From positions 232,793 to 296,792 of the forward strand of contig JAQUQW010000001.1 in NCBI GenBank assembly GCA_028716245.1: a stretch of DNA of 64,000 bases. Direction: 5' to 3'. Below the pieces are notes generated by a model. It did not search any database. It was not told the origin of the DNA and worked only from the letters and a program-made list of their open reading frames with translations. Each line of letters starts with the position of its first letter. Position 1 is the stretch's first letter. A program made the translations under genes and the position numbers. This document shows, piece after piece, positions 1 to 30,829 of this stretch. The stretch comes from Candidatus Omnitrophota bacterium. GTDB taxonomy: Bacteria; Omnitrophota; Gorgyraeia; Gygaellales; Profunditerraquicolaceae.

Positions 1-596
1 AGCGCCAGGTTATCCACTTTACTCCTGATGTCGGTAAGCCCAAAGTCTTATCGGCGCAAGAGAAAATTACCCTTATTAATCCCGAGGTGAAAGTCGTTAC
101 CTATCAGAGCAGGGTATATTCAGGTAATATCGCCGGAATTATCAAGGATTATGATTTTATTATCGATGGGACGGATAATTTTGCCGCTAAATTCCTGATT
201 AACGATGCCTGTGTCTTCGGCGCTAAAGCGTTTTCCCACGGCGGAATTTTACGCTTTGACGGGCAAGCAATGACCTATCTTCCGGGCCAGGCATGTTACC
301 GGTGTATATTCACCGGCCCTCCTCCGAAAGGCGCGGTGCCCACTTGTTCGCAAGCCGGTATCTTAGGGGCGGTTGCCGGTATGCTGGGTACGATCCAGGC
401 AGCTGAGGCCTTGAAATTTCTTATTGGGAAAGGAGAGCTTCTTCTGAACCGGCTGTTAATCTTTAATGCTTTGGATATGAAGTTCCGCCAGGCGGAATTT
501 AAAAAAAATCCGGATTGTCCTGTCTGCGGCAATAATCCAACAATTAAAGAATTGATTGATGAAGAACTGCCGGCTTGTGATTTAAAAAAGAAATGA
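1..596 (+). CDS. ThiF/MoeB/MoeZ-family E1-like adenylyltransferase (HcyF/MoeZ-like). The 5' end is cut by the window edge.
   Basis: The reading frame is open from nt 3 with no stop. The translation ...DVGKPKVLSAQEKITLINPEVKV... matches the ThiF/MoeB fold. The C-terminal CxxC...CPVC zinc motifs are present. Confidence 0.8.
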   Translation, partial: RQVIHFTPDVGKPKVLSAQEKITLINPEVKVVTYQSRVYSGNIAGIIKDYDFIIDGTDNFAAKFLINDACVFGAKAFSHGGILRFDGQAMTYLPGQACYRCIFTGPPPKGAVPTCSQAGILGAVAGMLGTIQAAEALKFLIGKGELLLNRLLIFNALDMKFRQAEFKKNPDCPVCGNNPTIKELIDEELPACDLKKK

Positions 597-991
597 AAAT
601 AACCAAGAAAGTAATTAAAGAAATGGTGGAATATGCTAAGAAAGAGGCGCCGCTTGAGGCCTGTGGGTATCTTGGCGCCAAAGACGGCATCATTACAAAA
701 ATATATGCGTTGACCAATATTGATAAAAGCAATGAGCATTTTTCTTTTGAGCCAAAAGAGCAATTCCTGGCAGTTAAAGATGCCCGTGTTCAAGGATTGG
801 AGATTTGCGCTGTCTACCATAGCCATCCAGCCAGCCCGGCCCTCCCGTCACAGGAGGATGTAAAATTGGCGTATGATCCGGATATGAGTTATTTTATTAT
901 TTCCCTGGCAGGCTGCAATGGACAGGTGCGGGCATTTTCAATAAAGAGCGGTGAAGTGAGTGAAATTAATCTGGAGGTTGTTGATGATTAA
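593..991 (+). CDS. JAMM/MPN+ (Mov34) metalloprotease, Mec+/HcyD/QbsD-like
   Basis: JAMM motif E...HSHPASPALPSQED (HxHx7Sx2D), 132 aa. Its 5' end overlaps the ThiF-like gene and its 3' end (989-991) overlaps the start of the next gene, consistent with translational coupling. Confidence 0.8.
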   Translation: MKITKKVIKEMVEYAKKEAPLEACGYLGAKDGIITKIYALTNIDKSNEHFSFEPKEQFLAVKDARVQGLEICAVYHSHPASPALPSQEDVKLAYDPDMSYFIISLAGCNGQVRAFSIKSGEVSEINLEVVDD

Positions 992-3362
992 AGGGTATGA
1001 TTTACCTGTTGGCTTGGATGCGGAGATCACCCAGCTTGAAGAGTTGATCCGCAAGCATAGGGCAGGTGAGGTTTCGGCAACCGAACTTAAGGCTCATCGC
1101 GTGCCTTTTGGGGTATATGAACAGCGTCAAGCCGATACCTACATGGTGAGGATCAGGTGCGCCGGAGGTTTTGTTACTCCTCAGCAGCTGGAAAGTGTCT
1201 CTGCCATCGCTCAGGAATACGGAGTAAGCGACCTGCATATTACCTCCCGGCAGGAGCTGCAAATTCATTACGTGGAATTGGATGATATTATTACTGTGAT
1301 GCGGCGCTTGAAAGAGATTGGCCTTTCTACAAGGGGAGGCGGCGGCAATACTGTGCGCAATATTGCCGTTTGCGATGATGCCGGGATTGACCCGCAGGAA
1401 GCCTTCGATGTGTCTTTGTATGCCGCAGCCCTAACCACAAGGATGATTGCCGAGGGGGATTCCTGGAATTTACCGAGAAAATTTAAAATTGCTTTTTCCG
1501 GCTCCGCAGAAGATAAGGGATATGCCACTCTTTCTGACCTGGGTTTTATTGCGCAAATAAAAAATAAGTTGGAGAACAATGGTTTGGTTTCCAATAGCCA
1601 AAGCCGCGGGATAAAAGGATTTAGGGTTTATGCGGCCGGAGGCCTGGGCGCTAAATCAGCCGAAGGAAAACTTCTGTTTGATTTTATCCAGGCAAATGAA
1701 GTTTATCCTGTTGCCGAGGCGTTGAAAAGTGTTTTTTTTAAATACGGTAACCGCAGGAATAAGCATGCTGCCCGCCTGCGCTTCTTATGGCAGAACCTCG
1801 GTGCAGAGGAGTTTAAGCAAAAATTTTACCAAGAGTATGACCGGATTAAGGTTGATGGTTTTGAGCCGTTAGATATCATTGATTATGGGCAGAGTTTATC
1901 TTCTCCCGGTTTGCCCAAAGCTAAGCCTTTAGATGCGCGGGGGTTTTCGTTATGGAAAACGCGTTTTGTAAGGCAGCAAAAACAGGAAGGGTTATTTTCG
2001 GTATTAATTCCTATAGAGCTGGGTTTTATTCCTTGCGCGCAGGCCGCTAAATTGGGCCGGTTCCTGAAATCCTTTGGTGCTGATGTAATAAGGATGACCC
2101 GGGATCAGAATTTTCTGATACGCAATATTCCTTTGGATTATTTGGGCGCTGCCTATAATTTTTTTAAAGAGACAATACCTGAATCAAGCCAGCCTGCTCT
2201 TTACGGCAAAATATTATCTTGCGCCGGAGCGGCTACCTGCCAGCTTGGGATTTGCCTTTCCCGTCAGGCAGCAGGCGCCCTGATCGATGAGCTTAAAAAA
2301 AGCGGTTTGGATTTGGATAAAATAGGAGACATTAAAATTAATATCTCCGGATGTCCTAATTCCTGTGGCCACCATCCGGCGGCTGATTTGGGTTTTTCCG
2401 GTAAGGCATTGAGGAATGCCGACAGGTTATATCCGGCATATAATGTGTTTGCCGGAGCTGTTATTGGTGATGGTAAAACTAAACTCGCAGAATATACCGG
2501 AGAGATTCCTGCTAAGGCGCTGGTTCTGTTGGTAAAGGATCTTCTAAAGGCTTATATATCCAAAACCGGACAGTTTAGTAATTTTCGGGAGTATATTAAT
2601 GGTGAAGGAAAAGTGGATTTAAGAGAAATTATTCTACGTTATTCTAAGGCGCCTGATTTTGATAAAGATAAAAATTATTATTTTGACTGGGGAGCGGATA
2701 AACTTTTTTCTTTAGCCGAGCGTAAGGCAGGGGAATGTTCCGCCGGATTTTTCGATCTTCTTGAAATGGATCTAAATAATATAAAAAATACTCAGGCGGT
2801 ACTTGCAACAGGCGCGCAGGATGAAAGGGAGAAGCTGCTCGGTGAGCTGGTATATTATGCCAGCAGGGCGCTTTTGATTACCCGCGGGCTTGACGCAAAA
2901 AACCAGGAGGAGGTATATGCGGGATTTCTTAAATATTTCATCGAAACAGGATTGATTGATGGGGCGTTCAGGGAGATCATTACTATTGCTCAGCATGGTG
3001 ATCTTAAAGAGATTTTAGCAAAGCAAGCTCAGGCATTTGAACTGGCTAAGGCAGTGCAGGCGCTGTATGAAACTATGGATAATAGTTTTAATTTTAAAAC
3101 AACCGTTTCTGCGCAAGAATCCCGTCAGGAACAAATATCCGCAGCAATAATCAAAGATCTGCGGGGAGTTGTCTGCCCGCTTAATTTTGTAAAAACCAAG
3201 ATTGAGCTGGCTAAGCTAAAATCCGGAGATACCTTGGAAATTTGGCTTGATGACGGCGCTCCAATTGAAAATGTCCCCGGGTCAGTCAAAGCCGAAGGCC
3301 ATAAGATTATTTCGCAGAAAAGAATCGCCAATTACTGGTCAGTGGTAATCAATAAAAAATGA
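984..3362 (+). CDS. Assimilatory (ferredoxin-type) sulfite/nitrite reductase hemoprotein with a C-terminal TusA-like domain
   Basis: Two nitrite/sulfite-reductase half-domains are present. The siroheme-[4Fe4S] cysteine cluster CAGAATC...CPNSC is present. The last ~75 aa carry the TusA CPxP motif (VVCPLNFVKTK). The ATG at 984 overlaps the JAMM stop (ATGATTAA) and has a GGAGG RBS at 974; the ORF track offers an alternative start at 960. Confidence 0.8.
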   Translation: MIKGYDLPVGLDAEITQLEELIRKHRAGEVSATELKAHRVPFGVYEQRQADTYMVRIRCAGGFVTPQQLESVSAIAQEYGVSDLHITSRQELQIHYVELDDIITVMRRLKEIGLSTRGGGGNTVRNIAVCDDAGIDPQEAFDVSLYAAALTTRMIAEGDSWNLPRKFKIAFSGSAEDKGYATLSDLGFIAQIKNKLENNGLVSNSQSRGIKGFRVYAAGGLGAKSAEGKLLFDFIQANEVYPVAEALKSVFFKYGNRRNKHAARLRFLWQNLGAEEFKQKFYQEYDRIKVDGFEPLDIIDYGQSLSSPGLPKAKPLDARGFSLWKTRFVRQQKQEGLFSVLIPIELGFIPCAQAAKLGRFLKSFGADVIRMTRDQNFLIRNIPLDYLGAAYNFFKETIPESSQPALYGKILSCAGAATCQLGICLSRQAAGALIDELKKSGLDLDKIGDIKINISGCPNSCGHHPAADLGFSGKALRNADRLYPAYNVFAGAVIGDGKTKLAEYTGEIPAKALVLLVKDLLKAYISKTGQFSNFREYINGEGKVDLREIILRYSKAPDFDKDKNYYFDWGADKLFSLAERKAGECSAGFFDLLEMDLNNIKNTQAVLATGAQDEREKLLGELVYYASRALLITRGLDAKNQEEVYAGFLKYFIETGLIDGAFREIITIAQHGDLKEILAKQAQAFELAKAVQALYETMDNSFNFKTTVSAQESRQEQISAAIIKDLRGVVCPLNFVKTKIELAKLKSGDTLEIWLDDGAPIENVPGSVKAEGHKIISQKRIANYWSVVINKK

Positions 3363-4762
3363 AAACGGGAAAAGGTAAGGTATATTTAGTTGGCGCCGGC
3401 CCCGGAGCTAAGGATTTGATTAGCTTAAGAGGCCAGCAGGTGCTGCAGCAAGCAGAAGTTGTAATCTACGACTATCTTGTGGATAGCCAAATGCTTGAGG
3501 ATGTAAATCCGCAGGCAAGATTGATCAGCTGCGATAAATTTGGTAAGAGGCTGCCGCAAGAAGAATTTTTTGATTCTCAGGCTAAAGTCAACTCCGCGAT
3601 GGTAAAATTTGCAAAAAAAGGCAAATTAGTGGTGCGTTTAAAAAACGGGGATCCTTTTATCTTTGGCCGGGCTCAGGAGGAAATAGAAGCGCTTTTAAAA
3701 AATCGTATAGAGTTTGAAGTTGTTCCGGGAATTACCGCCTCCCAGGCAGCATCTTGTTTTTCCGGTATACCTTTGACCAGCCGTAAAATTTCATCCAGCG
3801 TCATATTTATCAGCGGCCGGCAGGCAAAAGGAGAAAAACCGGCTATTGATTGGAGCTCTATTTCTAAAAATGAAACTATCGTGTTGTATATGGCGGTAAA
3901 AAATATCCGCCAAATAGCCAAACAATTGATTAAAAATGGTAAACCTGCGGATACCCCGGTGGCTGCGATTTCCCAGGCAGGAAAGATTAACCAAAAAGTT
4001 GCCATCGCTAAACTTGAGAATATCGATAGGATAGTTAAGAAAAATAAAATTACTGCCCCTGCTATTTTTATCATTGGTCAGGTTGTGCGTTTGGGTGAAA
4101 AGTTGAATTGGTTTAAAAAAAATAAGCGTGTTTTGTTTACAGGGCTTTCGGCAAAAAGGTTTTTTTTAAAAGGAAATTATTTCCATCTGCCGATGATCAA
4201 GATCGAACCCCTTGACAATTATGCGGATTTTGACAGGCATATTAAGCTAATCCGAAGTTTTAACTGGTTAGTTTTTACGAGCCGTTATGCTGTGCAGTAT
4301 TTTTTCCAGCGCCTGGGTAAAATTGGCCTGGATACGCGTTCACTGCAGAATATAAAAATTGCGGCAATCGGCTCTTCCACAGCCGCAAGCCTTAGGAACC
4401 TGGGGATTATTGCGGATTTAATTCCTAAAGTTGAAACATCAAAAGGCCTGCTCAGTGCCTTAAAGAGGATCTCCTTAAAAGGCAGAAGGATTTTTTTGCC
4501 TCATTCTGATATTTCGGACAAAGGGTTGACAAAAGGGCTGGAGAGTTTTGGTGCTAAGGTTACCGGCTGTGCTGCCTATAGAAATATTATGCCCGAAAAT
4601 CTTCCTAGTTTCGATCTGAATAAGTTTGATGAAATAATTTTTACCAGCCCATCGTGTGTCCGTAATTTTATTAAGCATTATGGGAAACCGCCAAAAAAAA
4701 CGGCTATAAGGTGCGTCGGGGATGTTACTCTGGCCCAAGCTAAAAAGTTACGTTTATTATAA
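3359..4762 (+). CDS. cobA-hemD: Uroporphyrinogen-III C-methyltransferase fused to uroporphyrinogen-III synthase (CobA/HemD)
   Basis: SUMT N-terminus VYLVGAGPGAKDLISLRG...VVIYD followed by a HemD-like C-terminal half, 467 aa. Confidence 0.85.
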   Translation: MKTGKGKVYLVGAGPGAKDLISLRGQQVLQQAEVVIYDYLVDSQMLEDVNPQARLISCDKFGKRLPQEEFFDSQAKVNSAMVKFAKKGKLVVRLKNGDPFIFGRAQEEIEALLKNRIEFEVVPGITASQAASCFSGIPLTSRKISSSVIFISGRQAKGEKPAIDWSSISKNETIVLYMAVKNIRQIAKQLIKNGKPADTPVAAISQAGKINQKVAIAKLENIDRIVKKNKITAPAIFIIGQVVRLGEKLNWFKKNKRVLFTGLSAKRFFLKGNYFHLPMIKIEPLDNYADFDRHIKLIRSFNWLVFTSRYAVQYFFQRLGKIGLDTRSLQNIKIAAIGSSTAASLRNLGIIADLIPKVETSKGLLSALKRISLKGRRIFLPHSDISDKGLTKGLESFGAKVTGCAAYRNIMPENLPSFDLNKFDEIIFTSPSCVRNFIKHYGKPPKKTAIRCVGDVTLAQAKKLRLL

Positions 4763-4764
4763 AA

Positions 4765-5697
4765 ATGCAAAACATATCTGCTAAAGACCTGATTATGCCC
4801 TATTTTGTTATTGAGGGGCGCAACAAGAAAGAACCTGTTGCGAATATGCCTGGTATTTTTAGATTGACTATTGATAATCTCTTGGAGGAAATATCAGAGG
4901 CAAAACGGCTGGGTATATCTAGAGTGCTTCTTTTCGGAGCCTGCCCCCGGCAATATAAGAATGAGTCGGCAAGTTATGCCTACGCCAAAAATAATATTGT
5001 ACCCCGGGCAGTAGCAGGATTAAAGCGTAAAATTAAAGGCGTGTCTGTTATTACCGACGTATGCCTCTGCGCTTATACTTCGCACGGCCACTGCGGCATC
5101 CTTAATAAAAAAAATAAAATAGATAACCGAAAAACTCTGGAGGCACTTTCTAAAATTGCCTTTGTGCATGCTGATAGCGGAGCAGATTGGGTTGCCCCTT
5201 CGGCAATGGCAAAAAAACAAGTATCCGCAATAAGAAGCGCGTTGGATAAAAACGGATTTTCTAAGGTAAAAATTATGGGCTATTCTGCTAAATTCGCGTC
5301 GAATTTTTACGGCCCATTCCGCGATGCAGTAGATTCCGCCCCTAAATTCGGAAACAGGAAGGCTTATCAATTGGATTATACTGATGCAAAAAAGGCGCTA
5401 AGGGAGATAAGGGATGATATCCGGGAAGGCGCGGATATGGTAATGGTCAAACCGGCTTTAAGTTACCTGGATATCATTAAAGAAGCAAAACAGAAATTTA
5501 ATTATCCGTTAGCTGTTTATAATGTTAGCGGAGAGTTTGCGTTGGTAAAAATGGGGGCTAATATCGGTCTTTGGCAGGAGAAGGAGGTTGTTTTTGAGAT
5601 CATTACTTCCCTAAAACGCGCCGGCGCCGATTATATTATTACCTATCACGCAAAAGATATTGCGCAATGGATAAAACAGAAAAATTATTTAATCTAG
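4765..5697 (+). CDS. hemB: Porphobilinogen synthase (delta-aminolevulinate dehydratase)
   Basis: ALAD family. The active-site region MVMVKPALSYLDI is present, 310 aa. Confidence 0.9.
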   Translation: MQNISAKDLIMPYFVIEGRNKKEPVANMPGIFRLTIDNLLEEISEAKRLGISRVLLFGACPRQYKNESASYAYAKNNIVPRAVAGLKRKIKGVSVITDVCLCAYTSHGHCGILNKKNKIDNRKTLEALSKIAFVHADSGADWVAPSAMAKKQVSAIRSALDKNGFSKVKIMGYSAKFASNFYGPFRDAVDSAPKFGNRKAYQLDYTDAKKALREIRDDIREGADMVMVKPALSYLDIIKEAKQKFNYPLAVYNVSGEFALVKMGANIGLWQEKEVVFEIITSLKRAGADYIITYHAKDIAQWIKQKNYLI

Positions 5698-6908
5698 CCA
5701 AGCGATACTTAGTCGGCGGAGTAGACAGCCCGGTGCGCAGCTTTAACTATGTAGGCGGCCGTCCGGTATTGATCAGGGCTGGAAGGGGCGTTAAGGTATT
5801 TGATTATAATAATAAAGAATACCTTGATTATGTTCTTTCCTGGGGAGCGGCAATCTTAGGGCATGCTCATCCGGCCGTGCTCAAAATTATTAAACAAAAA
5901 TTAGAATCAGGTTTAAGTTTTGGCACAACTAATCAAACTGAAATTGAGTTAGCGCAGGAAATCACCCGCGCAATCCCCTTTATTAAGAAAATACGCTTTG
6001 TTAATTCCGGGACTGAAGCGGTGATGGCAGCAGTAAGGCTGGGCCGGGCGTATACAGGAAGAGATAAAATCGTAAAATTCACGAATTCTTACCATGGCCA
6101 CGCGGATTATCTTTTGGTTAAGGCCGGTTCCGGGTTAGCAACTCTGCAGATCCCGGAAAGCGCCGGCGTGCCGAAAGATTTTATTAAACACACACTGATA
6201 GTTCCTTTTGGCGACAAAGAAGCGCTTGAAGCGGTATTTAAAAAATATAAAAATGAAATTGCCGCGGTTTTGGTTGAACCGGTAGGCGGTAATTACGGTG
6301 TTTTGCCGGTGAATATTGGATTTCTGAAGGCAGTAAGGAGTTTGACTAAGAAATATGGATCCCTGCTGATCTGCGATGAAATAATTAACGCATTTCGTTT
6401 TCGATACGGGGCAGCTTCTCAAAGGTTCGGGATTGCTCCGGATTTAATCTGTTTAGGGAAAATTATCGGGGGTGGCTTGCCTATTGGTGCTTATGCGGGA
6501 AGCGCAAAGATCATGAATAAATTAGCTCCATTAGGAAAGGTTTATCAGGCTTCTACTTTTTCCGGTAATCCTATTGTTATGCAGGCAGGTTTGGCTACGC
6601 TCAAAATACTCAAAGGATCAAACTATAAGCGCCTTAAGAATTTGAATGAATATTTGTGTAGTAATCTAAAAAAAGAGGCGTTGATTTGCGGTATAAAATT
6701 AGAAATAAGCCATTATGAAAGTATGTTTAGCTTACGATTTAAATCTAAAAATGAGTTTGCCAGATTTTATAAATTAATGCTTGATCAAGGAATATTTTTG
6801 GCCCCCTCGGAATTTGAAGTAAACTTTTTATCCTTTGCGCATACGCAAAAAGAAATAAATAAAACTTTATTTGCTGTAAAATTGGTTTTTAAAAGAATGG
6901 AGAATTAA
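5667..6908 (+). CDS. hemL: Glutamate-1-semialdehyde 2,1-aminomutase
   Basis: N-terminus LVGGVDSPVRSF. Class-III PLP aminotransferase fold, 413 aa. Confidence 0.9.
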   Translation: MDKTEKLFNLAKRYLVGGVDSPVRSFNYVGGRPVLIRAGRGVKVFDYNNKEYLDYVLSWGAAILGHAHPAVLKIIKQKLESGLSFGTTNQTEIELAQEITRAIPFIKKIRFVNSGTEAVMAAVRLGRAYTGRDKIVKFTNSYHGHADYLLVKAGSGLATLQIPESAGVPKDFIKHTLIVPFGDKEALEAVFKKYKNEIAAVLVEPVGGNYGVLPVNIGFLKAVRSLTKKYGSLLICDEIINAFRFRYGAASQRFGIAPDLICLGKIIGGGLPIGAYAGSAKIMNKLAPLGKVYQASTFSGNPIVMQAGLATLKILKGSNYKRLKNLNEYLCSNLKKEALICGIKLEISHYESMFSLRFKSKNEFARFYKLMLDQGIFLAPSEFEVNFLSFAHTQKEINKTLFAVKLVFKRMEN

Positions 6909-7003
6909 TTTGTTTTTTCTGATAAGTTTGAAAATCAGTGTTAATAAAACGCTTTTAAACAAGAATAGTAGTAGTATAATATAAATCATTCAAGAAGAAA
7001 TAA

Positions 7004-8311
<1,308 letters not shown>

Positions 8312-8317
8312 AATATA

Positions 8318-8358
8318 ACACCCCGCGCTTATAAGGAATTGCGCGGGTGTGCCTTTAT
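8318..8358 (+). terminator. Stem-loop between metY and cysK. The stem is ACACCCCGCGC/GCGCGGGTGT. It may be an attenuator or a weak terminator.
   Basis: A near-perfect 10-bp GC-rich inverted repeat with a 12-nt loop, followed by CCUUUAUGG, which is only a weak U-tract. Confidence 0.35.
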
Positions 8359-8374
8359 GGCAAGGAGGTGTCTG

Positions 8375-9310
8375 ATGGGAAAAATATTTTCTGATATTAC
8401 TCAAACAGTTGGGAAAACCCCGTTAGTCAAGCTCAATCGTATCGGAGAAGGTTTGGGGGCAACCATACTGGCTAAATTAGAATCTTTTAACCCGCTCTCC
8501 AGTGTAAAAGACAGGATTGGAACGGCGATGATCGAAGACGCGGAGAAAAGAGGCGTGCTTAAAAAAAATACCACGATTATTGAGCCCACCAGCGGTAATA
8601 CCGGGATTGCCTTGGCATTTGTCGCCGCTGCTAAAGGTTATAAATTAATCCTGACTATGCCTGATACGATGAGCATAGAGAGAAGGCAGCTTTTGGCGAT
8701 TTTTGGCGCGCAGTTAGTTCTGACTCCGGGCGCCGAAGGGATGAAGGGGGCGGTAAAAAAAGCCGAGGAGTTAGCTAAAGAGATTCCGGATGCGATTATT
8801 TTGCAACAGTTTAATAATCCGGCTAATCCGCAGATTCACCGTAAAACTACTGCCGAAGAGATTTGGGATGATACTGACGGTAAAATTGATATTCTTGTAT
8901 CCGGAGTCGGCACCGGCGGGACAATTACTGGAGTATCTGAAGTGATCAAGAAAAGAAAACCAAGCTTTAAGGCGATTGCGGTTGAACCCGATGCTTCGCC
9001 GGTTTTATCCGGAGGCGCTGCCGGCCCGCATAAGATCCAGGGTATTGGCGCCGGATTTATCCCGCAGGTTTTAAACCGGGAAATTATTGATGAGGTTATC
9101 CGGGTTACTAACGATAATTCCGGAGAAACCGCTCGGCGCCTGGCAAAGTCGGAAGGGATATTAGCCGGGATTTCAAGCGGGGCGGCATTGTGGGCGGCGT
9201 TAGAAGTGGCTAAACGTAAGGAAAATAAAGGGAAGGTCATCGTGGTTATTCTTCCGGATACCGGCGAGCGGTATCTGAGCACCTGGCTTTTTCAAGAGGT
9301 AAAAGTATGA
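8375..9310 (+). CDS. cysK: Cysteine synthase (O-acetylserine or O-phosphoserine sulfhydrylase; CysK/CysM family)
   Basis: PLP fold type II. The N-terminus is [11 protein letters not shown]. The lysine site SVKDR and the glycine loop GTGGT are present. A strong RBS AAGGAGGTG lies 5 nt upstream of the ATG at 8375; the ORF track's 8339 start is unlikely. Confidence 0.9.
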
Positions 9311-10464
9311 TTAAAGAAAAAATAAACCCGGCCAATAGTGTGGGAGTGGTTAAAACTCAAAGTTTTACTTTTGAATCTTTAAAACTTGAGAGCGGGGAGA
9401 AGTTTGGCCCGGTTACTTTGGCTTATGAAACATATGGCGTTTTAAATAAAGAGAAATCCAATGCTATTCTTATTGTGCATGCCCTTTCAGGCGATGCCCA
9501 TGCTGCCGGTCTGCATGAGGGAACTGATGATTTAGGCTGGTGGGATTCTTTTATCGGCCCGGGTAAAGCTTTTGATACGGAAAAATACTTTGTGGTTTGT
9601 TCAAATATACTCGGCGGCTGTAAGGGGTCAACCGGCCCTTCAAGCGTAAATCCTAAAACCAATAAGCCGTACGCTTTGGATTTTCCGTTAATTAGCATTA
9701 ACGATATAGTAAATGCCCAGAGGCGTTTAATTGGCCATTTAGGCATCGAAAAGTTACTTTCTGTGGTCGGCGGCTCAATGGGCGGACAGCAGGTTTTATC
9801 GTGGTTAGCTAACCATGCGGATATAATTCATAGCGCAATTCCGATTGCCACCACGATCAAACATTCTCCTCAACAAATAGCATTTAATGAGGTAGGCCGC
9901 CAAGCGATTATGGCCGACGCCCATTGGAAATCCGGCAATTATTATGACGGCCCGTTTCCTTTAAAAGGATTGGCCGTAGCCAGGATGATCGGCCATATAA
10001 CCTATATGAGCGACAGCTCGATGGCTGAGAAATTCGGCCGCCAAAAAAAAGACAGCGCCGAAGCGTTTAAATTTACGGCTGATTTTGAAGTCGAGGGGTA
10101 TTTACGTTATCGCGGCGATAATTTTGTCAAGCGCTTTGACGCAAATTCCTATCTTTATATAACCAAGGCAATGGATAATTTTGACGCCTCAGGCGCCAGG
10201 CCATTTTGTGAAGTTTTAGCCGGCATCAAGGCCAAGGTTTTGGTCATATCTTTCAAATCCGATTGGCTGTATCCGGCTTATCAATCAAAGGAGATAGTTA
10301 AGGCCTGCAAGCTTGCCGGCATTGCGACAACCTATTGTGAGATTGATTCAAATTATGGCCACGACGCGTTTCTTTTGGAAGTGGAAGAGGAGACGCATTT
10401 GATCAAACATTTCCTTAAAAAAATATTTTATGCTTATGAGGTGACCGGTGTCTACGGAGAGTAA
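9307..10464 (+). CDS. metX: Homoserine O-acetyltransferase
   Basis: Alpha/beta-hydrolase MetX family. The region [15 protein letters not shown] and the catalytic GGSMGG are present. Confidence 0.9.
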
Positions 10465-11047
10465 AGGGATTCAATTGGACCACCAAGTCATACTGGACTT
10501 AGTTGATCAGCAATCCAGCGTTTTAGACTTAGGCTGCGGCGCGGGGGATCTTTTGTATCTTCTGATTAAAGAGAAAAAAGTGAGCGGCCAGGGTATTGAG
10601 ATCGATGACCAGGCAATTTATAAATGCGTCGCTAAGGGCTTAAATGTTTTTCACGGAGATATCGACAGCGGACTTGCCGAATTCAGCGATAAATCTTTTG
10701 ACTATGTGGTGCTTAATCAAAGCATGCAGCAGATTTTGCATGTTGATAAGGTGCTCACCGATGCCTTACGGGTGGGTAAAAAGGTAATCGTAGGATTTCC
10801 CAATTTTGCCTATTATAAGTCCAGGCTGCAGATGTTCTTTCAGGGCAGGTCTCCGGTAACCCCCAGCCTTCCTTATCAATGGTATGAAACTCCGAACCTG
10901 CATTTTTTGAGCATAACTGATTTTAAGGATTATTGCCGTTTGAAAAAGATCAATATTGAGCGCAGTGTTTGTGTCGGGGAAAGAAGGGAAACTCCGTTTT
11001 TACCCAATTTATTTGGCCAGACCGGAATATTTTTGATCTCAAAATAG
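10448..11047 (+). CDS. metW: Methionine biosynthesis protein MetW
   Basis: 199 aa methyltransferase-like protein with VLDLGCGAG. It overlaps the metX 3' end, which is the canonical metXW arrangement. Confidence 0.8.
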
Positions 11048-11066: not shown

Positions 11067-11246
11067 ATGCCTTATATAAATTTAAAATTAGTCGGTAAAC
11101 TCACTAAGGACCAAAAAGAAAAGATCGCTAAAGAGTTTTCCGATACGCTTTTGAAAGTAGCCGGGAAACCCAAAGAGAGCCTTTATTTGGTTATTGATGA
11201 GGTTAATGGTGAAAACTGGGCCAAAGGCGATAAGTTTTTTGGGTAA
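11067..11246 (+). CDS. 4-oxalocrotonate tautomerase family protein
   Basis: 59-aa ORF MPYINLKLVGKLTKDQKEKIAKEFSDTLLKV...LYLVIDEV. The Pro at residue 2 (Pro1 after Met removal) and the beta-alpha-beta fold signature are present. It is below the length cutoff of the supplied ORF track. Confidence 0.65.
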   Translation: MPYINLKLVGKLTKDQKEKIAKEFSDTLLKVAGKPKESLYLVIDEVNGENWAKGDKFFG

Positions 11247-11254
11247 AATAGTCT

Positions 11255-11345
11255 GACGGGGAAGCCGCTATAGCGGTTTGAGAGTTCTGCGTTATAAGCA
11301 GATTACCCTTGTACCTGATCTGGATAATGCCAGCGTAGGAAAGAA
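11255..11345 (+). promoter_or_regulatory. TPP (thiamine pyrophosphate) riboswitch aptamer, THI element
   Basis: GGGGAAGCC...UUGAGAG ... ACCCUUGUACCUGAUCUGGAUAAUGCCAGCGUAGGAAAG is a near-consensus THI-box. It sits upstream of thiSGH. Confidence 0.85.
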
Positions 11346-11347
11346 TC

Positions 11348-11385
11348 AAAACCCTTATGCATTGGCATAAGGGTTTTGATTTTAC
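11348..11385 (+). terminator. Riboswitch expression platform. It is an intrinsic terminator hairpin, AAAACCCUUAUGC-AUUGG-CAUAAGGGUUUU followed by GAUUUU.
   Basis: A perfect 13-bp stem plus a U-tract lies immediately 3' of the TPP aptamer and 11 nt before the thiS ATG. Confidence 0.75.
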
Positions 11386-11395
11386 AAAATAAATT

Positions 11396-11596
11396 ATGCG
11401 TATAACCTTAAACGGTAAAGTCGAGGATGTTGATGCCCAACTAAACCTTAGTGAGCTTGTTTTAGCTAAGGGCCTGCGCGTTGAAAATGTGGTTATTGAA
11501 TATAACTTTCGTATTCTGCCTAAGGGAGAGTGGTTTGATACACTTTTAGGCGAGAATGATTCTATTGAGATCATAAGTTTTATTGGGGGCGGCTAA
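11396..11596 (+). CDS. thiS: Thiamine biosynthesis sulfur-carrier protein ThiS
   Basis: 66 aa ending ...IGGG. ThiS/MoaD fold. Confidence 0.85.
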
Positions 11597-11597
11597 T

Positions 11598-12425
11598 ATG
11601 GAAGATTTTTTAGAGATAGCGGGAGAAAAATTAAGTAACCGGCTTTTTATCGGAACAGGGAAGTTCTCTAGCTATCCGATAATGAAGCAAGCTTTAGAAG
11701 AGGCGAAGGCCCAGGTTGCTACGGTGGCTTTGAGAAGGGTTGACGAGAGCTCTAAAACAGAGAATATCATGGATTATATTCCGCAGAAATGTAAAGTTAT
11801 GATCAATACTTCCGGAGCCAGAGACGCACAAGAAGCGCTGCGTATTGGCCGCCTGGCAAAAGCAGCCGGAGCCGGGAACTGGATAAAAATTGAAGTTATC
11901 CGTGATAATAAATACTTGCTTCCCGATAGTATTGAGACTTTTAAGGCAGTTGAAGTTTTAGCCAAAGAAGGCTTTGTTGTTTTTCCTTATATGAGCCCGG
12001 ATTTATCCATTGGCAGAAGAATGGTTGATGCCGGAGCCAGCGCAATTATGCCTTTGGGTTCTCCGATAGGCAGCAATCGCGGGGTAAAAACCCGTGAGCT
12101 TATCGAAATAATGGTTAATGAAATTAAGCTGCCGATTATTGTTGACGCGGGCCTTGGAAAACCTTCAGAAGCTTGTGAATGTATGGAGTTAGGTTGCGCG
12201 GCAGTATTGGTTAATACCGCCATTGCCGTTTCCGAAGATCCGGTAAAGATGGCCAAGGCTTTTAGTCAGGCAGTTTATGCCGGCAGGCTTGCCTATTTGT
12301 CAGGAATCCCGGCAATGGGAAAAACAGCCCGCGCTTCCAGCCCCTTGACTGGATTTTTAAGAGAAGATAAACCACAAGGCGATGGTTTGGCTTCCGATAG
12401 CCAAAGCCATAATAAACCGCAATGA
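11598..12425 (+). CDS. thiG: Thiazole synthase
   Basis: TIM-barrel ThiG with IGTGKF...VMINTSGA...[14 protein letters not shown]. The ATG at 11598 directly follows the thiS stop. The alternative TTG at 11583 is less likely. Confidence 0.9.
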
Positions 12426-13549
12426 GTTTTTATGGTGTCTATTCCCAAAATAAAGATTTAGACCTAAAGAAAGCTTTTAGTTTTATTTCACCTGCCTCCA
12501 TTCAGGAATCCTTAGAAAAAAATAATCTGGATACAAAACAATTCCTTGGATTGCTTTCTCCGCAAGCCGAAAATAATCTTGAAAGTATGGCTCAGAAAGC
12601 GCAGGCGATAACCAGGAATTATTTTGGCAATACCATCCAGCTTTATGCTCCGATGTATCTATCCAATTATTGCGATAATTCCTGCCTTTATTGTGGTTTT
12701 AACCTGAACAATGACATCCAAAGGAGACAGCTTACTCTGGAAGAAGTGGAAAAAGAGGCGCAATTTATTTCCTCTTCGGGGTTAAAGCACATTCTTATTT
12801 TAACCGGGGAATCAAGGCTTAAGAGCCCGGTCAGCTACATTCAGGATTGTGTCAATGTTCTAAAAAAATATTTTACTTCAATATCTATTGAAGTATATCC
12901 TTTGGCTGAAAATGAATACGCCCGGTTAGTTGTCGGCGGGGTGGACGGCTTGACAATCTATCAGGAAGTATATGATGAACAGCTTTACGCAAAAATACAT
13001 ATTTGCGGCCCTAAAAAAGATTATAAATTCCGTCTGGATGCTCCGGAAAGAGGCGCAAAAGCCAGAATGAGAAGCGTTTCTATCGGGGCCTTGCTTGGTT
13101 TAGGAAACTGGAGAAGGGAAGCATTCTTTCTGGGGTTGCACGCAAAATACCTGCTTGATAAGTTTCCGGATGTTGAAATCGGGATATCTGTCCCCAGAAT
13201 TCGGCCGCAAAACCACCAGCCGCAAGTCGGCGATTTTAAACCAATTTGCCAGGTAAGCGACAGAAATGTCATCCAGATAATTTTGGCTTTCAGGATTTTT
13301 TTGCCCCGGCTTGGTATTGCAATCTCAACGCGGGAAAATCCGGAATTCAGGGAAAATCTTTTATCTCTTGGTATTACCAGGATGTCAGCCGGTTCAGCGA
13401 CTAATGTTGGCGGCCATACTCTTTACAAGGAAGAAAAAGAGCAGTCTTCTCAGTTTGAGATTCAGGATCAAAGAACCGTGGGCCAGATCAAAGCTGTCCT
13501 TGAAGGAAAGGGATACCAGCCGGTTTTTAAGGATTGGCTGTATTTGTAG
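12422..13549 (+). CDS. thiH: 2-iminoacetate synthase (tyrosine lyase), radical SAM
   Basis: [10 protein letters not shown] radical-SAM motif. 375 aa. Follows thiG. Confidence 0.85.
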
Positions 13550-28921: not shown

Positions 28922-29183
28922 GGCTATGAAAAAAGTTTTCATTCGCAATTTTGGCTGACCGATGGATACCTTATAGACGGATTATGGAGAGGGTAACGGA
29001 GGTTGCGTTGAGCTTGGTTTAGTGTGGCTGTTTTGAGGTAAATTTGAAGAGTGTGGGCGCAAAGAAAAAGGTCAGGAGAAGGCAGAAATAAGGCTTGACA
29101 GAAGCGGTTTTGTAAGGTATATTTCTATTGGATCACGATGAGAGGCAAGCCAAAGGGTTCCGTCCCGCGGTAATGCCTCTTCT

Positions 29184-29669
29184 TCATTTATACCGCAGTT
29201 TATCCTTCAAGCCATTCATAAAAAGCATATCTGGGGCAAATTCGCGCAGAAGAGAAGAGTATTTAAGCTGGTTAGGTATGATTAGCCGCTTTAATTTGCC
29301 TTGTTTCTTAAGATGCTTAATCAGACAGTAGCAATCCCCATCCCCGGTAACGATGACGGCCTTGTCGTAGTTAGGATATTCCAGCATAGCATGCAGCACT
29401 AATTCTGCATCCGTATTACCTTTTACTTTCCCATCTGGTAGACGTAAGGTAGGTTTGAAGATCAAGATATAACCTTTTTGTTGCAGAGAGGTATAAAGGC
29501 TTTGGTTAGTAGGAACAAAGCCTATGAAAATAAAAGCCTTCGTTATATCAAGCGTGTCTTTTAAATACTGCCTGAATCTTTTAAAATCCAATTCCCAGCC
29601 CTGGTCCCGGATAGCTAGGTTAAGATTCTGGCTGTCTATGAAAGCATAATTATTTTCGTTTTGGTTCAT
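29184..29669 (-). CDS. NYN-domain (LabA-like) nuclease-fold protein
   Basis: MNQNENNYAFIDSQNLNLAI...AVIVTGDGDCYCLI matches the NYN/LabA signature. It is the only convincing minus-strand gene in the window. Confidence 0.65.
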   Translation of the reverse strand: MNQNENNYAFIDSQNLNLAIRDQGWELDFKRFRQYLKDTLDITKAFIFIGFVPTNQSLYTSLQQKGYILIFKPTLRLPDGKVKGNTDAELVLHAMLEYPNYDKAVIVTGDGDCYCLIKHLKKQGKLKRLIIPNQLKYSSLLREFAPDMLFMNGLKDKLRYK

Positions 29670-30149
29670 GTGATTATTTTATACCTTTTCAATTATCTGT
29701 CAACCCAAATTAAAATCTTAGGAAATGAAACTATTTAAGAGCATTACTAATGTTATAAAGTGGATAAAAAATGATTGATTCCAGGTCTTTGGAAGAGGAT
29801 AATATAACCTTAGAATCACAACCTGAAGGGGGGTGGGAGTAATGAGCAAATTTATTGCTCATCATCTGAAACAGCCCCTGCCTTCTCGCGCGTAGGGCCC
29901 GGAAACTCTGGCTAATACTCTGGCTGGACTCCGGATAACTTGAAACGAAGGATTCCATTGGGTTGTGGTAATGAAGGGTTGGCTCTTGGCCCGGGAAACC
30001 GGAACCCAAAGGTGATGGTTCTGCTTTAGGGATCTGCAGAGATAAAAAGGCAAAGCAAGCCAGGCGGAGGATAACCTTAGCTGAGTATAGCGAAGGTCCA
30101 CCGCTTAACCCTTCCCATTATTTTATTAGATAAATTAAAGGAGGTTGCT

Positions 30150-30595: not shown

Positions 30596-30604
30596 AATAC
30601 CAAG

Positions 30605-30781: not shown

Positions 30782-30829
30782 ATTTTTTTACCCCGAAACT
30801 TTACAAGGCGCAAGTAAAAGGAGGTGGTT

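What the first reader, a model, noticed from the sequence alone, without database searches (positions are those of the whole stretch)
1..11047. Protein-thiocarboxylate-style sulfur assimilation supercluster: ThiF-like E1, JAMM protease, sulfite reductase, siroheme genes, then metY-cysK-metX-metW
A ThiF/MoeZ-type adenylyltransferase and a JAMM metalloprotease sit directly upstream of a sulfite reductase and overlap it. They are followed without gaps by the siroheme-branch genes (cobA-hemD, hemB, hemL). Next come O-acetylhomoserine sulfhydrylase, cysteine synthase and the O-acetylhomoserine-forming metX/metW pair. This composition (E1, JAMM, Sir, MetY) matches the protein-thiocarboxylate-dependent homocysteine pathway characterised in Wolinella succinogenes (HcyS/HcyF/HcyD/MetY/Sir). 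It also matches the CysO/MoeZ/Mec+/CysM cysteine route of Mycobacterium tuberculosis. Here both a MetY and a CysK/CysM homolog are co-clustered with the machinery that makes the siroheme cofactor. That would make this a self-contained sulfite-to-Cys/Met module. The small sulfur-carrier (ThiS/MoaD-like) gene expected with such a system is not in the window. It presumably lies just upstream of position 1.
Basis: partly seen in the sequence, partly recalled or inferred. Interest (0 to 1): 0.6.

Follow-up and report, generated by a model that had tools for sequence, protein, structure and literature searches.

The report
Sulfur-carrier homocysteine gene cluster, Omnitrophota
They form the right-hand part of an already described type of bacterial operon that passes reduced sulfur to a small ubiquitin-like carrier protein to make homocysteine, here in an uncultured Omnitrophota bacterium, so this is a new example of a known system and not a new one.

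Summary
**Observation.** Confirmed.

**Interpretation.** Partly supported.
- The E1 (no rhodanese domain), the JAMM protease and the siroheme sulfite reductase are the 3' part of a conserved module. In relatives its order is ThiS-like carrier (…FMGGG plus a short tail), MetY paralogue, E1, JAMM, Sir.
- The carrier and its likely partner lie upstream, outside the window. In three of the four closest relatives with enough upstream sequence (L002, L081, L009) the carrier is fused in frame to the MetY paralogue.
- That paralogue, not the window's metY, resembles the Wolinella succinogenes enzyme (PDB 3RI6): 45-53% identity against 39%.
- The window's metY and cysK are canonical sulfide-using types. 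cysK is CysK, not CysM. The Mycobacterium CysO/MoeZ/CysM analogy fails on the E1 and on the cysteine synthase.

- Sir carries a C-terminal helical domain plus a TusA domain, each with one invariant cysteine.
- A thiS-thiG-thiH operon behind a TPP riboswitch lies at 11247-13549.

**Novelty.** This operon class was described by Iyer et al. 2006 (Table 1, row 4e), and the pathway by Krishnamoorthy & Begley 2011. The window adds a new member of a known kind. Interest is modest.

The parts
1..596 (+). 3' part (197 codons) of a ThiF/MoeB-family E1-like adenylyltransferase. It has no rhodanese domain. It keeps the crossover-loop Cys (PTCSQAG) and the Zn-ribbon CYRC…CPVC.
   Evidence: PF00899, 165.7 bits. 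No NCBIfam equivalog cutoff is reached, even by the full-length 93%-identical homologue L002:8804-9613 (269 aa). Only the MoeB 'subfamily' model PRK05690 passes, 271.3 against 266. PDB: MoeB 1JW9 and ThiF 1ZFN tie at 193 bits.
593..991 (+). JAMM/MPN+ metalloprotease (132 aa). It is the predicted processing protease for the carrier's C-terminal extension or fusion, and for the carrier-homocysteine adduct.
   Evidence: PF14464 Prok-JAB, 79.2 bits. Motif E…HSHPASPALPSQED read from the sequence. PDB 2KKS 110 bits and PfJAMM1 5LD9 44 bits. The NCBIfam desampylase model scores 65.4, below its cutoff of 130.
984..3362 (+). NirA-type siroheme/[4Fe-4S] sulfite reductase (792 aa from ATG 984; the ORF opens at GTG 960) with a C-terminal extension.
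   Evidence: NIR_SIR 133.7 bits and NIR_SIR_ferr 109 bits. Best PDB matches are plant NiR and M. tuberculosis NirA, 122-127 bits. C413, C419, C457 and C461 are invariant in 78 homologues. Homologues are named 'sulfite reductase (ferredoxin)' by JGI.
2541..3143 (+). Helical middle domain of Sir (about aa 520-720) with an invariant Cys585 in the motif GECSAG. Its function is unknown.
   Evidence: No Pfam or PDB sequence match. AF2 model has mean pLDDT 87. Only weak HEPN-like four-helix-bundle fold matches were found, TM 0.55-0.56. C585 is invariant in 78 of 78 homologues and in 38 of 38 sequences in A1.
3156..3359 (+). TusA/SirA sulfurtransferase domain fused to the C-terminus of Sir, with invariant Cys731 (GVVCPLN).
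   Evidence: PF01206, 68.3 bits. Foldseek TM 0.85 and rmsd 1.6 Å to E. coli TusA 3LVJ_C. The Cys is invariant.
3359..4762 (+). cobA-hemD fusion: uroporphyrinogen-III C-methyltransferase plus uroporphyrinogen-III synthase (siroheme branch).
   Evidence: TP_methylase 165.4 bits and HEM4 154.1 bits. NF004790 scores 282.3, above its cutoff of 198.
4765..5697 (+). hemB, porphobilinogen synthase.
   Evidence: PF00490, 420.6 bits. NF006762 scores 421.6, above its cutoff of 297.
5667..6908 (+). hemL, glutamate-1-semialdehyde 2,1-aminomutase.
   Evidence: NF000818 scores 531.4, above its cutoff of 398.
7019..8311 (+). Canonical metY (O-acetylhomoserine sulfhydrylase / homocysteine synthase), after a 110-nt AT-rich gap.
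   Evidence: TIGR01326 scores 680.7, above its cutoff of 495.1. PDB best match is 7KB0 at 604 bits; 3RI6 scores only 283 bits, 39% identity.
8375..9310 (+). cysK, O-acetylserine sulfhydrylase A type (ORF opens at TTG 8339; the probable start is ATG 8375).
   Evidence: TIGR01139 cysK scores 479.8, above its cutoff of 350.95. cysM TIGR01138 scores 310.5, below its cutoff of 394.2. PDB best matches are 3RR2 and 2Q3B at 437-442 bits.
9307..10464 (+). metX, homoserine O-acetyltransferase.
   Evidence: NF001209 scores 498.9, above its cutoff of 331.
10448..11047 (+). metW.
   Evidence: PF07021, 231.2 bits. TIGR02081 scores 239.6, above its cutoff of 189.5.
11067..11246 (+). 59-aa 4-oxalocrotonate-tautomerase-family protein, conserved after metW in relatives.
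   Evidence: PF01361, 43.4 bits. Present after metW in L003, L009 and L011.
11247..11356 (+). TPP riboswitch in front of thiS-thiG-thiH. It marks the start of a separate thiamin regulon.
   Evidence: RF00059, 51.1 bits (gathering score 54.3), E 5.5e-9, full-length model match. Not reported at the gathering threshold.
11396..13549 (+). thiS (11396..11596, ends …IGGG with no extension), thiG (11583..12425), thiH (12422..13549). There is no thiF here.
   Evidence: TIGR01683 thiS, 62.5 bits. The thiG and thiH names rest on my reading of the translations and on reciprocal BLAST matches to ORFs I labelled the same way in L003 and L013; they were not scanned against a family library. The window's ThiS scores only 39.7 bits on the cluster-carrier HMM, against 71 bits or more for the E1-adjacent carriers, and is 33% identical.

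Best explanation
Window 1-3362 is the 3' half of a conserved five-gene module for protein-thiocarboxylate-dependent homocysteine synthesis, of the type characterised in Wolinella succinogenes (HcyS/MetY/HcyF/HcyD/Sir). The host is a Candidatus Omnitrophota bacterium.

**Proposed mechanism (inferred unless marked otherwise).**
1. A ThiS-family carrier is encoded about 1.3 kb upstream of the E1, outside the window. It is made with residues after its Gly-Gly. In the closest relatives it is an N-terminal fusion to a dedicated MetY paralogue.
2. The JAMM protease trims it to expose Gly-Gly.
3. The rhodanese-less E1 adenylates the carrier's C-terminus.
4. Sir reduces sulfite at its siroheme/[4Fe-4S] centre. 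The reduced sulfur converts the acyl-adenylate to a thiocarboxylate. Sir's fused TusA domain and a second invariant Cys probably take the sulfur-relay or docking role that a rhodanese domain has in MoeZ-type E1s.
5. The 3RI6-like MetY paralogue adds the thiocarboxylate to O-acetylhomoserine.
6. JAMM releases homocysteine.

**Supporting genes.**
- cobA-hemD, hemB and hemL (plus hemA and hemC upstream in relatives) supply the siroheme precursor for Sir.
- metX and metW make O-acetylhomoserine.
- The window's own metY and cysK are ordinary sulfide-dependent enzymes. They form a parallel direct-sulfhydrylation route and a cysteine branch, probably a separate transcription unit.
- thiS-thiG-thiH behind a TPP riboswitch is a separate thiamin unit that may borrow the same E1.

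**What is shown and what is inferred.** Shown here: gene identities, domain architecture, conserved synteny, and which MetY resembles 3RI6. Inferred: every chemical step, and the content of the window's own upstream DNA.
For: - **Gene and domain identities:**
- **Synteny anchored on Sir.** In 51 genome loci with enough flanking sequence, 41 have the E1. Of those 41, 39 have JAMM, 38 have the carrier and 28 have the MetY paralogue.
- **Synteny anchored on the E1.** In metagenome loci, 45 of 48 have the carrier within 1.9 kb upstream, 30 of 48 have the MetY paralogue abutting the E1, and 43 of 50 have JAMM downstream.
- **Carriers.** They match the ThiS model (TIGR01683, 52-56 bits) and end …(F/Y)(L/F)YFMGGG plus a short extension, or are fused.
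- **The paralogue and 3RI6.** 437 bits against 298 for the next structure, and 45-53% identity. 3RI6 is the W. succinogenes enzyme according to PMC11568248.
- **E1 length.** The E1 stops after the Zn ribbon, and its full-length homologue is 269 aa.
- **TusA domain.** Confirmed by sequence and by predicted fold. C585 and C731 are invariant.
- **Closest relatives.** L009 is collinear with the whole finding. Upstream it carries cysH, a porin, an ABC transporter whose ATPase has a TusA-like tail, hemA, hemC and the carrier-MetY fusion.
- **Prior description.** Iyer et al. 2006 (PMC1779556, Table 1 row 4e) describe this neighbourhood class: E1 always without rhodanese, always with SirA, with sulfite reductase and O-acetylhomoserine sulfhydrylase, and including W. 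succinogenes.
Against: - The carrier and the MetY paralogue are not in the window. The window's own upstream sequence could not be retrieved, so their presence rests on relatives whose E1 is at most 93% identical.
- No HcyF, HcyD or HcyS sequences were available for direct comparison. The E1 is equidistant from MoeB and ThiF and passes no equivalog model.
- Sequence alone cannot separate sulfite from nitrite as the Sir substrate. The best NCBIfam models are 'NirA family' and 'ferredoxin-nitrite reductase', both below cutoff.
- In 13 loci, mostly Bacteroidales, the carrier-E1-JAMM set occurs without the paralogue. In two of them (L063, L077) a window-type MetY lies nearby, so use of the carrier by a canonical MetY or CysK cannot be excluded.
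- Nothing explains why two routes to homocysteine are kept side by side.
Confidence: 0.75

Rival explanations
1. The whole 11-kb block is one thiocarboxylate-dependent sulfite-to-Cys/Met module in which the window's own MetY and CysK take sulfur from the carrier, combining the HcyS and CysO routes.
For: - All the genes are adjacent on one strand, and the arrangement is conserved in L009, L010, L003 and L011.
- Many loci place a CysK homologue directly upstream of the carrier.
- Some Bacteroidales loci have carrier-E1-JAMM without the MetY paralogue but with a window-type MetY or a CysK nearby.
Against: - The window's MetY groups with canonical sulfide-using enzymes (39% identity to 3RI6; best match 7KB0 at 604 bits), while a dedicated 3RI6-like paralogue abuts the E1.
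- CysK passes the CysK equivalog model and fails the CysM one.
- PDB neighbours are CysK-type.
- A 110-nt AT-rich gap separates hemL from metY.
- Outside Omnitrophota the metY-cysK-metX-metW block is usually not linked to the core.
Confidence: 0.12
2. The E1 (with or without JAMM) is a housekeeping ThiF/MoeB that serves thiamin or molybdopterin synthesis. For example, it could activate the window's ThiS (11396), and its position next to Sir would be incidental.
For: - thiS-thiG-thiH in the window has no thiF of its own.
- The E1 scores like MoeB and ThiF, 193 bits to each.
- It passes only the MoeB subfamily model.
- From my own knowledge: a single E1 that serves several carriers is known, for example Thermus TtuC.
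Against: - The E1 is almost always flanked by its own distinct carrier family and by JAMM across phyla (45 of 48 and 43 of 50).
- According to Iyer et al., thiamin and MoCo operons never include a JAB protein.
- The window's ThiS scores 39.7 bits on the carrier HMM against 71 bits or more for the cluster carriers, and it needs no processing because it ends GGG.
- The ThiF equivalog TIGR02356 is below cutoff, 245.8 against 275.25.
- Dual use remains possible and is compatible with the main explanation.
Confidence: 0.08
3. The carrier/E1/JAMM trio is a ubiquitin-like protein-conjugation (SAMP/TtuB-like) system that reversibly modifies and regulates the sulfur-assimilation enzymes, and is not a sulfur donor.
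For: - The best NCBIfam match for JAMM is the haloarchaeal desampylase, and UbaA is the second-best model for the E1.
- From my own knowledge: archaeal SAMPs act both as sulfur carriers and as protein modifiers.
Against: - Both scores are far below the cutoffs (65 against 130; 330 against 450).
- No E2- or E3-like genes were seen.
- The neighbourhood is purely metabolic.
- The closest characterised homologue of the adjacent enzyme (3RI6) belongs to a sulfur-carrier pathway.
Confidence: 0.05

Closest known systems
Wolinella succinogenes HcyS/HcyF/HcyD/MetY/Sir protein-thiocarboxylate homocysteine pathway (Krishnamoorthy & Begley 2011, JACS 133:379; MetY structure 3RI6, Tran et al. 2011). Neither paper was held in the library, so pathway details are from my own knowledge.
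   Same: - E1 without a rhodanese domain, a JAMM protease and a siroheme sulfite reductase are adjacent.
- Relatives have a ThiS-family carrier with residues after Gly-Gly.
- Relatives also have a MetY that is 45-53% identical to 3RI6.
   Different: - The carrier and the 3RI6-like MetY are outside the window.
- In the nearest relatives they are one fused polypeptide.
- Sir carries a fused helical domain and a TusA domain.
- Siroheme-precursor genes and a second, canonical metY-cysK-metX-metW set are appended.
- HcyF and HcyD themselves could not be compared.
Iyer, Burroughs & Aravind 2006 (PMC1779556), Table 1 row 4e: ThiS/MoaD + JAB + E1 operons with sulfur-metabolism genes.
   Same: The defining combination is present: E1 lacking rhodanese, SirA/TusA always present, JAB, sulfite reductase and O-acetylhomoserine sulfhydrylase. 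PAPS reductase and an ABC transporter lie upstream in relatives.
   Different: - SirA/TusA is a C-terminal domain of Sir here, not a separate gene. Separate TusA genes do occur in other loci.
- Omnitrophota is not among the lineages listed in 2006.
- Carrier-MetY fusions are not mentioned in the passages I read.
Mycobacterium tuberculosis CysO/MoeZ/Mec+/CysM cysteine pathway (Burns et al. 2005; cited in PMC6225789).
   Same: The general logic is shared: a β-grasp carrier thiocarboxylate, an E1, a JAMM protease, and a PLP enzyme that forms a carrier-amino-acid adduct.
   Different: - The E1 has no rhodanese domain.
- The cysteine synthase is CysK-type, not CysM.
- The carrier family is ThiS-like and is linked to MetY, not to CysM.
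Bacterial thiamin ThiS/ThiF/ThiG/ThiH system.
   Same: The carrier belongs to the ThiS family, and the E1 is as similar to ThiF as to MoeB. A genuine thiS-thiG-thiH operon sits 300 nt downstream of the finding.
   Different: - That ThiS is a different subfamily (33% identity) with a free GG end and its own TPP riboswitch.
- Thiamin operons lack JAB proteins.
Archaeal SAMP/UbaA/HvJAMM1.
   Same: The E1 and JAMM are distant homologues. From my own knowledge, HvJAMM1 cleaves linear SAMP fusions, which is a precedent for processing a carrier-MetY fusion.
   Different: Scores are well below the family cutoffs. The context is metabolic, and there is no evidence of conjugation.

Membership tests
HcyS-type protein-thiocarboxylate homocysteine pathway (W. 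succinogenes) | ThiS/MoaD-fold carrier with Gly-Gly followed by extra residues, encoded next to the E1 | tested here: inconclusive
   The carrier is not in the window, because the E1 is cut at position 1, and the source contig could not be retrieved. In relatives it is present in 38 of 41 and in 45 of 48 loci, ending …FMGGG plus a 1-20 aa extension, or fused to MetY'.
HcyS-type protein-thiocarboxylate homocysteine pathway (W. succinogenes) | E1-like adenylyltransferase without a rhodanese domain | tested here: met
   The window ORF stops 20 aa after the CPVC Zn-ribbon motif. The 93%-identical full-length homologue is 269 aa and matches only adenylyltransferase models, none of them covering a rhodanese domain.
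HcyS-type protein-thiocarboxylate homocysteine pathway (W. succinogenes) | JAMM/MPN+ metalloprotease with an intact Zn site | tested here: met
   PF14464, 79.2 bits. The motifs E22 and H-S-H-x7-S-x2-D were read from the sequence.
HcyS-type protein-thiocarboxylate homocysteine pathway (W. succinogenes) | Adjacent assimilatory siroheme sulfite reductase | tested here: met
   NIR_SIR and NIR_SIR_ferr domains. The four cluster/siroheme Cys are invariant. Substrate (sulfite or nitrite) cannot be tested here.
HcyS-type protein-thiocarboxylate homocysteine pathway (W. succinogenes) | MetY of the thiocarboxylate-using (3RI6) type | tested here: not met
   This result is for the window's metY (7019-8311): 39% identity and 283 bits to 3RI6, against 604 bits to the canonical 7KB0. 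The feature is met by the paralogue abutting the E1 in relatives: 437 bits, 45-53% identity.
HcyS-type protein-thiocarboxylate homocysteine pathway (W. succinogenes) | Orthology of the E1 and JAMM to HcyF and HcyD | not testable with these tools
   No HcyF or HcyD sequences or models were available. Both Begley papers are not held.
HcyS-type protein-thiocarboxylate homocysteine pathway (W. succinogenes) | Carrier thiocarboxylate formation and transfer to O-acetylhomoserine | not testable with these tools
   This needs biochemistry.
M. tuberculosis CysO/MoeZ/Mec+/CysM pathway | E1 fused to a C-terminal rhodanese domain (MoeZ) | tested here: not met
   No rhodanese domain. The MoeZ model PRK07878 scores 304.7 against a cutoff of 647 for the full-length homologue.
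M. tuberculosis CysO/MoeZ/Mec+/CysM pathway | CysM-type (O-phosphoserine / thiocarboxylate-using) cysteine synthase | tested here: not met
   The cysK equivalog model scores 479.8, above its cutoff of 350.95. cysM scores 310.5, below its cutoff of 394.2. The 60 listed PDB matches are headed by CysK-type enzymes (3RR2, 2Q3B); none is named CysM.
Iyer et al. 2006 class 4e sulfur-assimilation Ubl/E1/JAB neighbourhood | E1 without rhodanese + JAB + SirA/TusA + sulfite reductase + O-acetylhomoserine sulfhydrylase in one neighbourhood | tested here: met
   All are present in window 1-8311, with SirA/TusA as the C-terminal domain of Sir. The class definition is quoted. PAPS reductase and an ABC transporter lie upstream in L002, L009 and L004.
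Thiamin ThiS/ThiF system | E1 is a ThiF equivalog that sits with thiS/thiG | tested here: not met
   TIGR02356 scores 245.8, below its cutoff of 275.25. The E1 is 10.8 kb from thiS-thiG-thiH, which has its own TPP riboswitch. The cluster carrier and the window's ThiS are 33% identical.

The most novel reading that the evidence does not exclude
This reading has two parts.

1. The C-terminal extension of Sir (a helical domain with invariant Cys585, plus TusA with invariant Cys731) might work as a built-in two-cysteine sulfur acceptor, by analogy with DsrC on dissimilatory sulfite reductase or with a rhodanese persulfide relay. Reduced sulfur would then pass from the siroheme site directly to the adenylated carrier without release of free sulfide.
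2. In this Omnitrophota lineage the carrier might be translated as a polyprotein with its own MetY, and JAMM would have to cleave it. That would be a ubiquitin-fusion-like maturation step in a biosynthetic pathway.

The evidence establishes the invariant cysteines and the in-frame fusions in L002, L009, L081, L005, L103 and L130. It establishes neither the chemistry nor the state of the window's own upstream gene.
Probability: 0.15. Interest if true: 0.6.

Novelty: new member of a known kind. Interest (0 to 1): 0.3.

Why it matters
- **Metabolic reconstruction.** In Omnitrophota and many other uncultured lineages, annotation pipelines call these genes 'MoeB', 'Mov34', 'nitrite/sulfite reductase' or 'TusA family protein', so the thiocarboxylate route to homocysteine is missed. 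Price et al. 2018 noted that the pathway was absent from KEGG and MetaCyc.
- **Which MetY is the partner.** The analysis shows which MetY is the likely thiocarboxylate partner. It also shows that the Sir-TusA fusion with two invariant cysteines is the common form of this reductase across phyla.
- **Testable side result.** The carrier-MetY fusion offers a direct test of JAMM-dependent maturation.
- **Limits.** None of this overturns current understanding.

Tried and rejected
- **Source contig.** Exact-protein look-ups of the window's JAMM and CobA-HemD found nothing. An exact 40-mer search of metagenome contigs also found nothing. The window's own upstream DNA could not be read.
- **Primary papers.** The two W. 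succinogenes papers (PMC3089676, PMC3176619) are not held. Pathway details are from my own knowledge, and the 3RI6 organism was confirmed indirectly.
- **Wasted search.** One literature search was lost because 'ThiS' matched the English word 'this'.
- **RNA elements.**
  - Rfam at the gathering threshold found nothing in the whole window.
  - The TPP riboswitch appeared only in E-value mode, 3 bits under the gathering score.
  - No SAM or other riboswitch was found in the hemL-metY gap.
- **Promoters and terminators.** The consensus scans were no better than shuffled sequence and were not used as evidence.
- **Ideas rejected.**
  - The window's ThiS as the missing carrier. It is a different subfamily, has no extension and has its own riboswitch.
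  - CysM or MoeZ identity.
  - An anti-phage E1/JAB system (Cap2/Cap3-like). This was rejected because the context is purely metabolic and the only defence-type NCBIfam match was weak (38.9 bits against a cutoff of 320).
- **Sir middle domain.** The fold search gave only weak HEPN-like helical-bundle matches, so the domain is left unassigned.

Full report
**1. What is in the sequence**

All large ORFs in 1-15 kb are on the + strand.
- a ThiF-family E1, cut by the window edge (3..596);
- a Prok-JAB/JAMM protease (593..991);
- a NirA-type siroheme reductase (984..3362; the ORF opens at GTG 960);
- a cobA-hemD fusion (3359..4762);
- hemB (4765..5697);
- hemL (5667..6908);
- metY (7019..8311);
- cysK (8375..9310);
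- metX (9307..10464);
- metW (10448..11047).

The overlaps are real: E1/JAMM by 4 nt, JAMM/Sir by 8 nt and Sir/cobA by 4 nt. 'Without gaps' needs one correction. A 110-nt AT-rich spacer with a good ribosome-binding site lies before metY. The block is therefore probably at least two transcription units. The consensus promoter and terminator scans were no better than shuffles, so I do not lean on them.

**2.

- *Extra domains on Sir.* Sir is 792-800 aa. After the reductase core it has a helical region of about 200 aa with no Pfam or PDB sequence match, and then a TusA/SirA domain (PF01206, 68.3 bits).
  - An AlphaFold model of aa 520-792, built on 38 sequences, has mean pLDDT 87.
  - Its last 70 residues superpose on E. 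coli TusA with TM 0.85.
  - The helical part gives only weak HEPN-like bundle matches.
- *Invariant cysteines.* Exactly six cysteines are invariant across 78 homologues. Four are the cluster/siroheme ligands (C413, C419, C457, C461). The others are C585 in the helical domain (GECSAG) and C731 in TusA.
- *A separate thiamin unit.* Just past the finding there is a 59-aa tautomerase-family gene. It is followed by a TPP riboswitch (11247-11356; 51.1 bits against a gathering score of 54.3; E 5.5e-9) and then thiS-thiG-thiH. The window therefore does contain a ThiS. It ends GGG with no extension, it is under thiamin control, and it is only 33% identical to the carrier family discussed below.

**3. 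Where it comes from and what lies upstream in relatives**

The window's own contig is not in the searchable collections. A Sir-anchored scan of species-representative genomes returned 80 loci.
- The best are Candidatus Omnitrophota MAGs. In L002 the Sir is 84% identical and the E1 93%. L009 and L001 follow.
- The same Sir-TusA protein also occurs in Bacteroidota, Calditrichota, Acidobacteriota, Spirochaetota and others.

My ORF/BLAST/HMM analysis of these loci shows a conserved core order:
1. a carrier of about 69 aa ending …DFLYFMGGG plus 1-20 residues;
2. a MetY paralogue of about 410 aa;
3. the E1 (269 aa);
4. JAMM;
5. Sir.

Of 51 loci with enough flanking sequence, 41 have the E1. Of those 41, 39 have JAMM, 38 have the carrier and 28 have the paralogue. 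An independent E1-anchored scan of metagenome contigs gives these counts:

| Feature | Loci |
|---|---|
| Carrier within 1.9 kb upstream of the E1 | 45 of 48 |
| MetY paralogue abutting the E1 | 30 of 48 |
| JAMM downstream | 43 of 50 |
| Sir within 5 kb | 24 of 37 |

The carrier passes the NCBIfam ThiS model (52-56 bits).

In L002, L009 and L081 the carrier runs in frame into the paralogue (…FMGGG(N/S)GLRFITKILHTK…). Their E1s are 93%, 89% and 92% identical to the window's. These are three separately assembled records (two MAGs under different accession prefixes and one metagenome contig). The same fusion occurs in L005, L103 and L130. L001 (91%) has a stop codon after GGGRG.

L009 is collinear with the window across the whole finding. 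Upstream, L009, L002 and L004 carry:
- cysH;
- a porin;
- a PstS-like binding protein;
- two permeases;
- an ABC ATPase with a Cys-less TusA-like tail;
- hemA and hemC (absent from L004);
- the carrier and the MetY paralogue.

**4. Which MetY belongs to the carrier system**

The paralogue from L002 has PDB 3RI6 as its clear best match: 437 bits against 298 for the next structure. 3RI6 is the W. succinogenes O-acetylhomoserine sulfhydrylase of Tran, Krishnamoorthy, Begley & Ealick 2011 (confirmed through PMC11568248).

The window's metY has canonical sulfhydrylases as its best matches (7KB0, 604 bits), and 3RI6 ranks 27th at 283 bits. In a joint alignment the two groups are cleanly bimodal:

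| Group | Identity to 3RI6 | Identity to the window's MetY |
|---|---|---|
| E1-adjacent paralogues | 45-53% | 34-39% |
| Window-type MetYs of Omnitrophota relatives | 39-41% | 83-94% |

The most likely thiocarboxylate partner is therefore a gene outside the window. The window's metY and cysK look like ordinary sulfide-using enzymes. cysK passes the CysK equivalog model and fails the CysM one, and its PDB neighbours are CysK-type.

**5. Mechanism**

The best-supported reading is a HcyS-type pathway. Every step below is inferred from homology and synteny.
1. JAMM exposes the carrier's Gly-Gly. In the fused forms this means cutting the carrier off MetY'.
2. The rhodanese-less E1 adenylates the carrier.
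3. Sulfur from Sir-catalysed sulfite reduction gives the thiocarboxylate.
4. MetY' couples the thiocarboxylate to O-acetylhomoserine, which is made by MetX/MetW.
5. JAMM releases homocysteine.

The TusA domain and the second invariant Cys on Sir are the obvious candidates for the relay or docking role that rhodanese plays in MoeZ-type E1s. Iyer et al. made the same suggestion for the SirA proteins of this operon class.

The cobA-hemD, hemB and hemL genes, with hemA and hemC upstream in relatives, supply precorrin-2 for the siroheme of Sir. No dehydrogenase or chelatase, no cysE and no sulfate-activation gene was seen among the window ORFs I scanned. ORFs under 150 aa beyond 13.5 kb were not scanned. 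'Self-contained' is therefore too strong.

The thiS-thiG-thiH operon has no thiF nearby, so the E1 may be shared between the two carriers. That would be compatible with the main explanation.

**6. Rivals**

It is not excluded, because some Bacteroidales loci lack the paralogue.
- *A purely housekeeping ThiF/MoeB role.* The near-obligate linkage to a dedicated carrier and to JAMM argues against it.
- *A SAMP-like conjugation role.* Its only support is sub-threshold model matches.

**7. Comparison with what is known, and novelty**

The neighbourhood class is described in Iyer, Burroughs & Aravind 2006, Table 1 row 4e. Its features are ThiS/MoaD, JAB, an E1 that always lacks rhodanese, an ever-present SirA, sulfite reductase, O-acetylhomoserine sulfhydrylase, PAPS reductase and ABC transporters. 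W. succinogenes is listed as a member. The chemistry was established for W. succinogenes by Krishnamoorthy & Begley 2011, cited. That paper is not held, so the details are from my own knowledge.

The M. tuberculosis CysO system shares the logic. It fails on two defining features here: the rhodanese-bearing E1 and CysM.

I therefore file the finding as a new member of a known kind, in Omnitrophota. It has lineage-specific additions: appended siroheme-precursor genes and a canonical metY-cysK-metX-metW unit. Two features deserve a note but not a high score: the Sir-helical-TusA fusion with two invariant cysteines, which is widespread, and the carrier-MetY' fusion in the nearest relatives.

**8. 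Verdict**

- Observation: confirmed.
- Interpretation: partly supported.
- Confidence in the main explanation: 0.75.
- Interest: 0.3.

Noticed in passing
window 29000-43600: Probable integrated mobile element or prophage remnant. It holds a small serine resolvase (31476-32024), a T7 Gp13-like ORF (33726-34238), several ORFs with no Pfam match including a 982-aa protein (36551-39499), a phage Rep-O-like protein (40691-41299), and a large serine recombinase (41902-43572) that abuts or overlaps a MiaB-like radical-SAM gene (43452-44690). GC drops to 0.367 at 32-34 kb and the AT skew jumps.
   Followed up: partly
window 11247-13549: A TPP riboswitch scores just under Rfam's gathering score (51.1 against 54.3 bits, E 5.5e-9). 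It is followed by thiS-thiG-thiH with no thiF. The only E1 seen among the genes examined in the window is the one in the sulfur cluster, so it may serve both carriers.
   Followed up: partly
window 11067-11246: A 59-aa 4-oxalocrotonate-tautomerase-family gene directly follows metW. It is conserved there in L003, L009 and L011 (76-95% identity). Its role next to methionine genes is unexplained.
   Followed up: no
L002:7347-8807; L009:7371-8807; L081:1079-2518; L005:7323-8756; L103:4313-5791; L130:2541-3983: In-frame fusions of the ThiS-like carrier to the N-terminus of the 3RI6-like MetY paralogue (…FMGGG-x-GLRFITK…). The carrier would need proteolytic release before it could be adenylated. The fusion occurs in separately assembled records and in at least two sequence contexts.
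   Followed up: partly
L002:4687-5709 (also L009:4695-5729, L004:5598-6416, L081:181-1053): A PstB-like ABC-transporter ATPase carries a C-terminal TusA-like domain (PF01206, 43 bits) in which the catalytic Cys is replaced (GVIYPDN). It is part of a porin / binding-protein / two-permease set between cysH and the carrier gene, and may be the cluster's sulfate, sulfite or thiosulfate importer.
   Followed up: partly
window 2541-3143 (Sir aa ~520-720): A conserved helical domain between the reductase core and TusA, with an invariant GECSAG cysteine. It has no sequence-family match and only weak HEPN-like fold matches, so its function is unexplained.
   Followed up: partly
window 1564-1607: The window's Sir has a 14-aa insertion (…KLENNGLVSNSQSR…) relative to L002 and L009, in a poorly conserved loop of the reductase core.
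   Followed up: no
L103, L104, L106, L119, L146, L157 (about 1-2.5 kb downstream of the E1): In these metagenome variants the long Sir-TusA is replaced by a Sir-like ORF of about 290-320 aa (23-28% identity) and a separate TusA-like gene of about 78-110 aa. In L103, L104, L106 and L119 one or two PAPS-reductase-like genes follow. This appears to be a split or alternative reductase version of the same module.
   Followed up: no
window 58925-61135 and 32359-36389: Large ORFs with no Pfam match at E≤1e-5: 736 aa at 58925-61135, and 346, 221 and 491 aa within 32359-36389.
   Followed up: no
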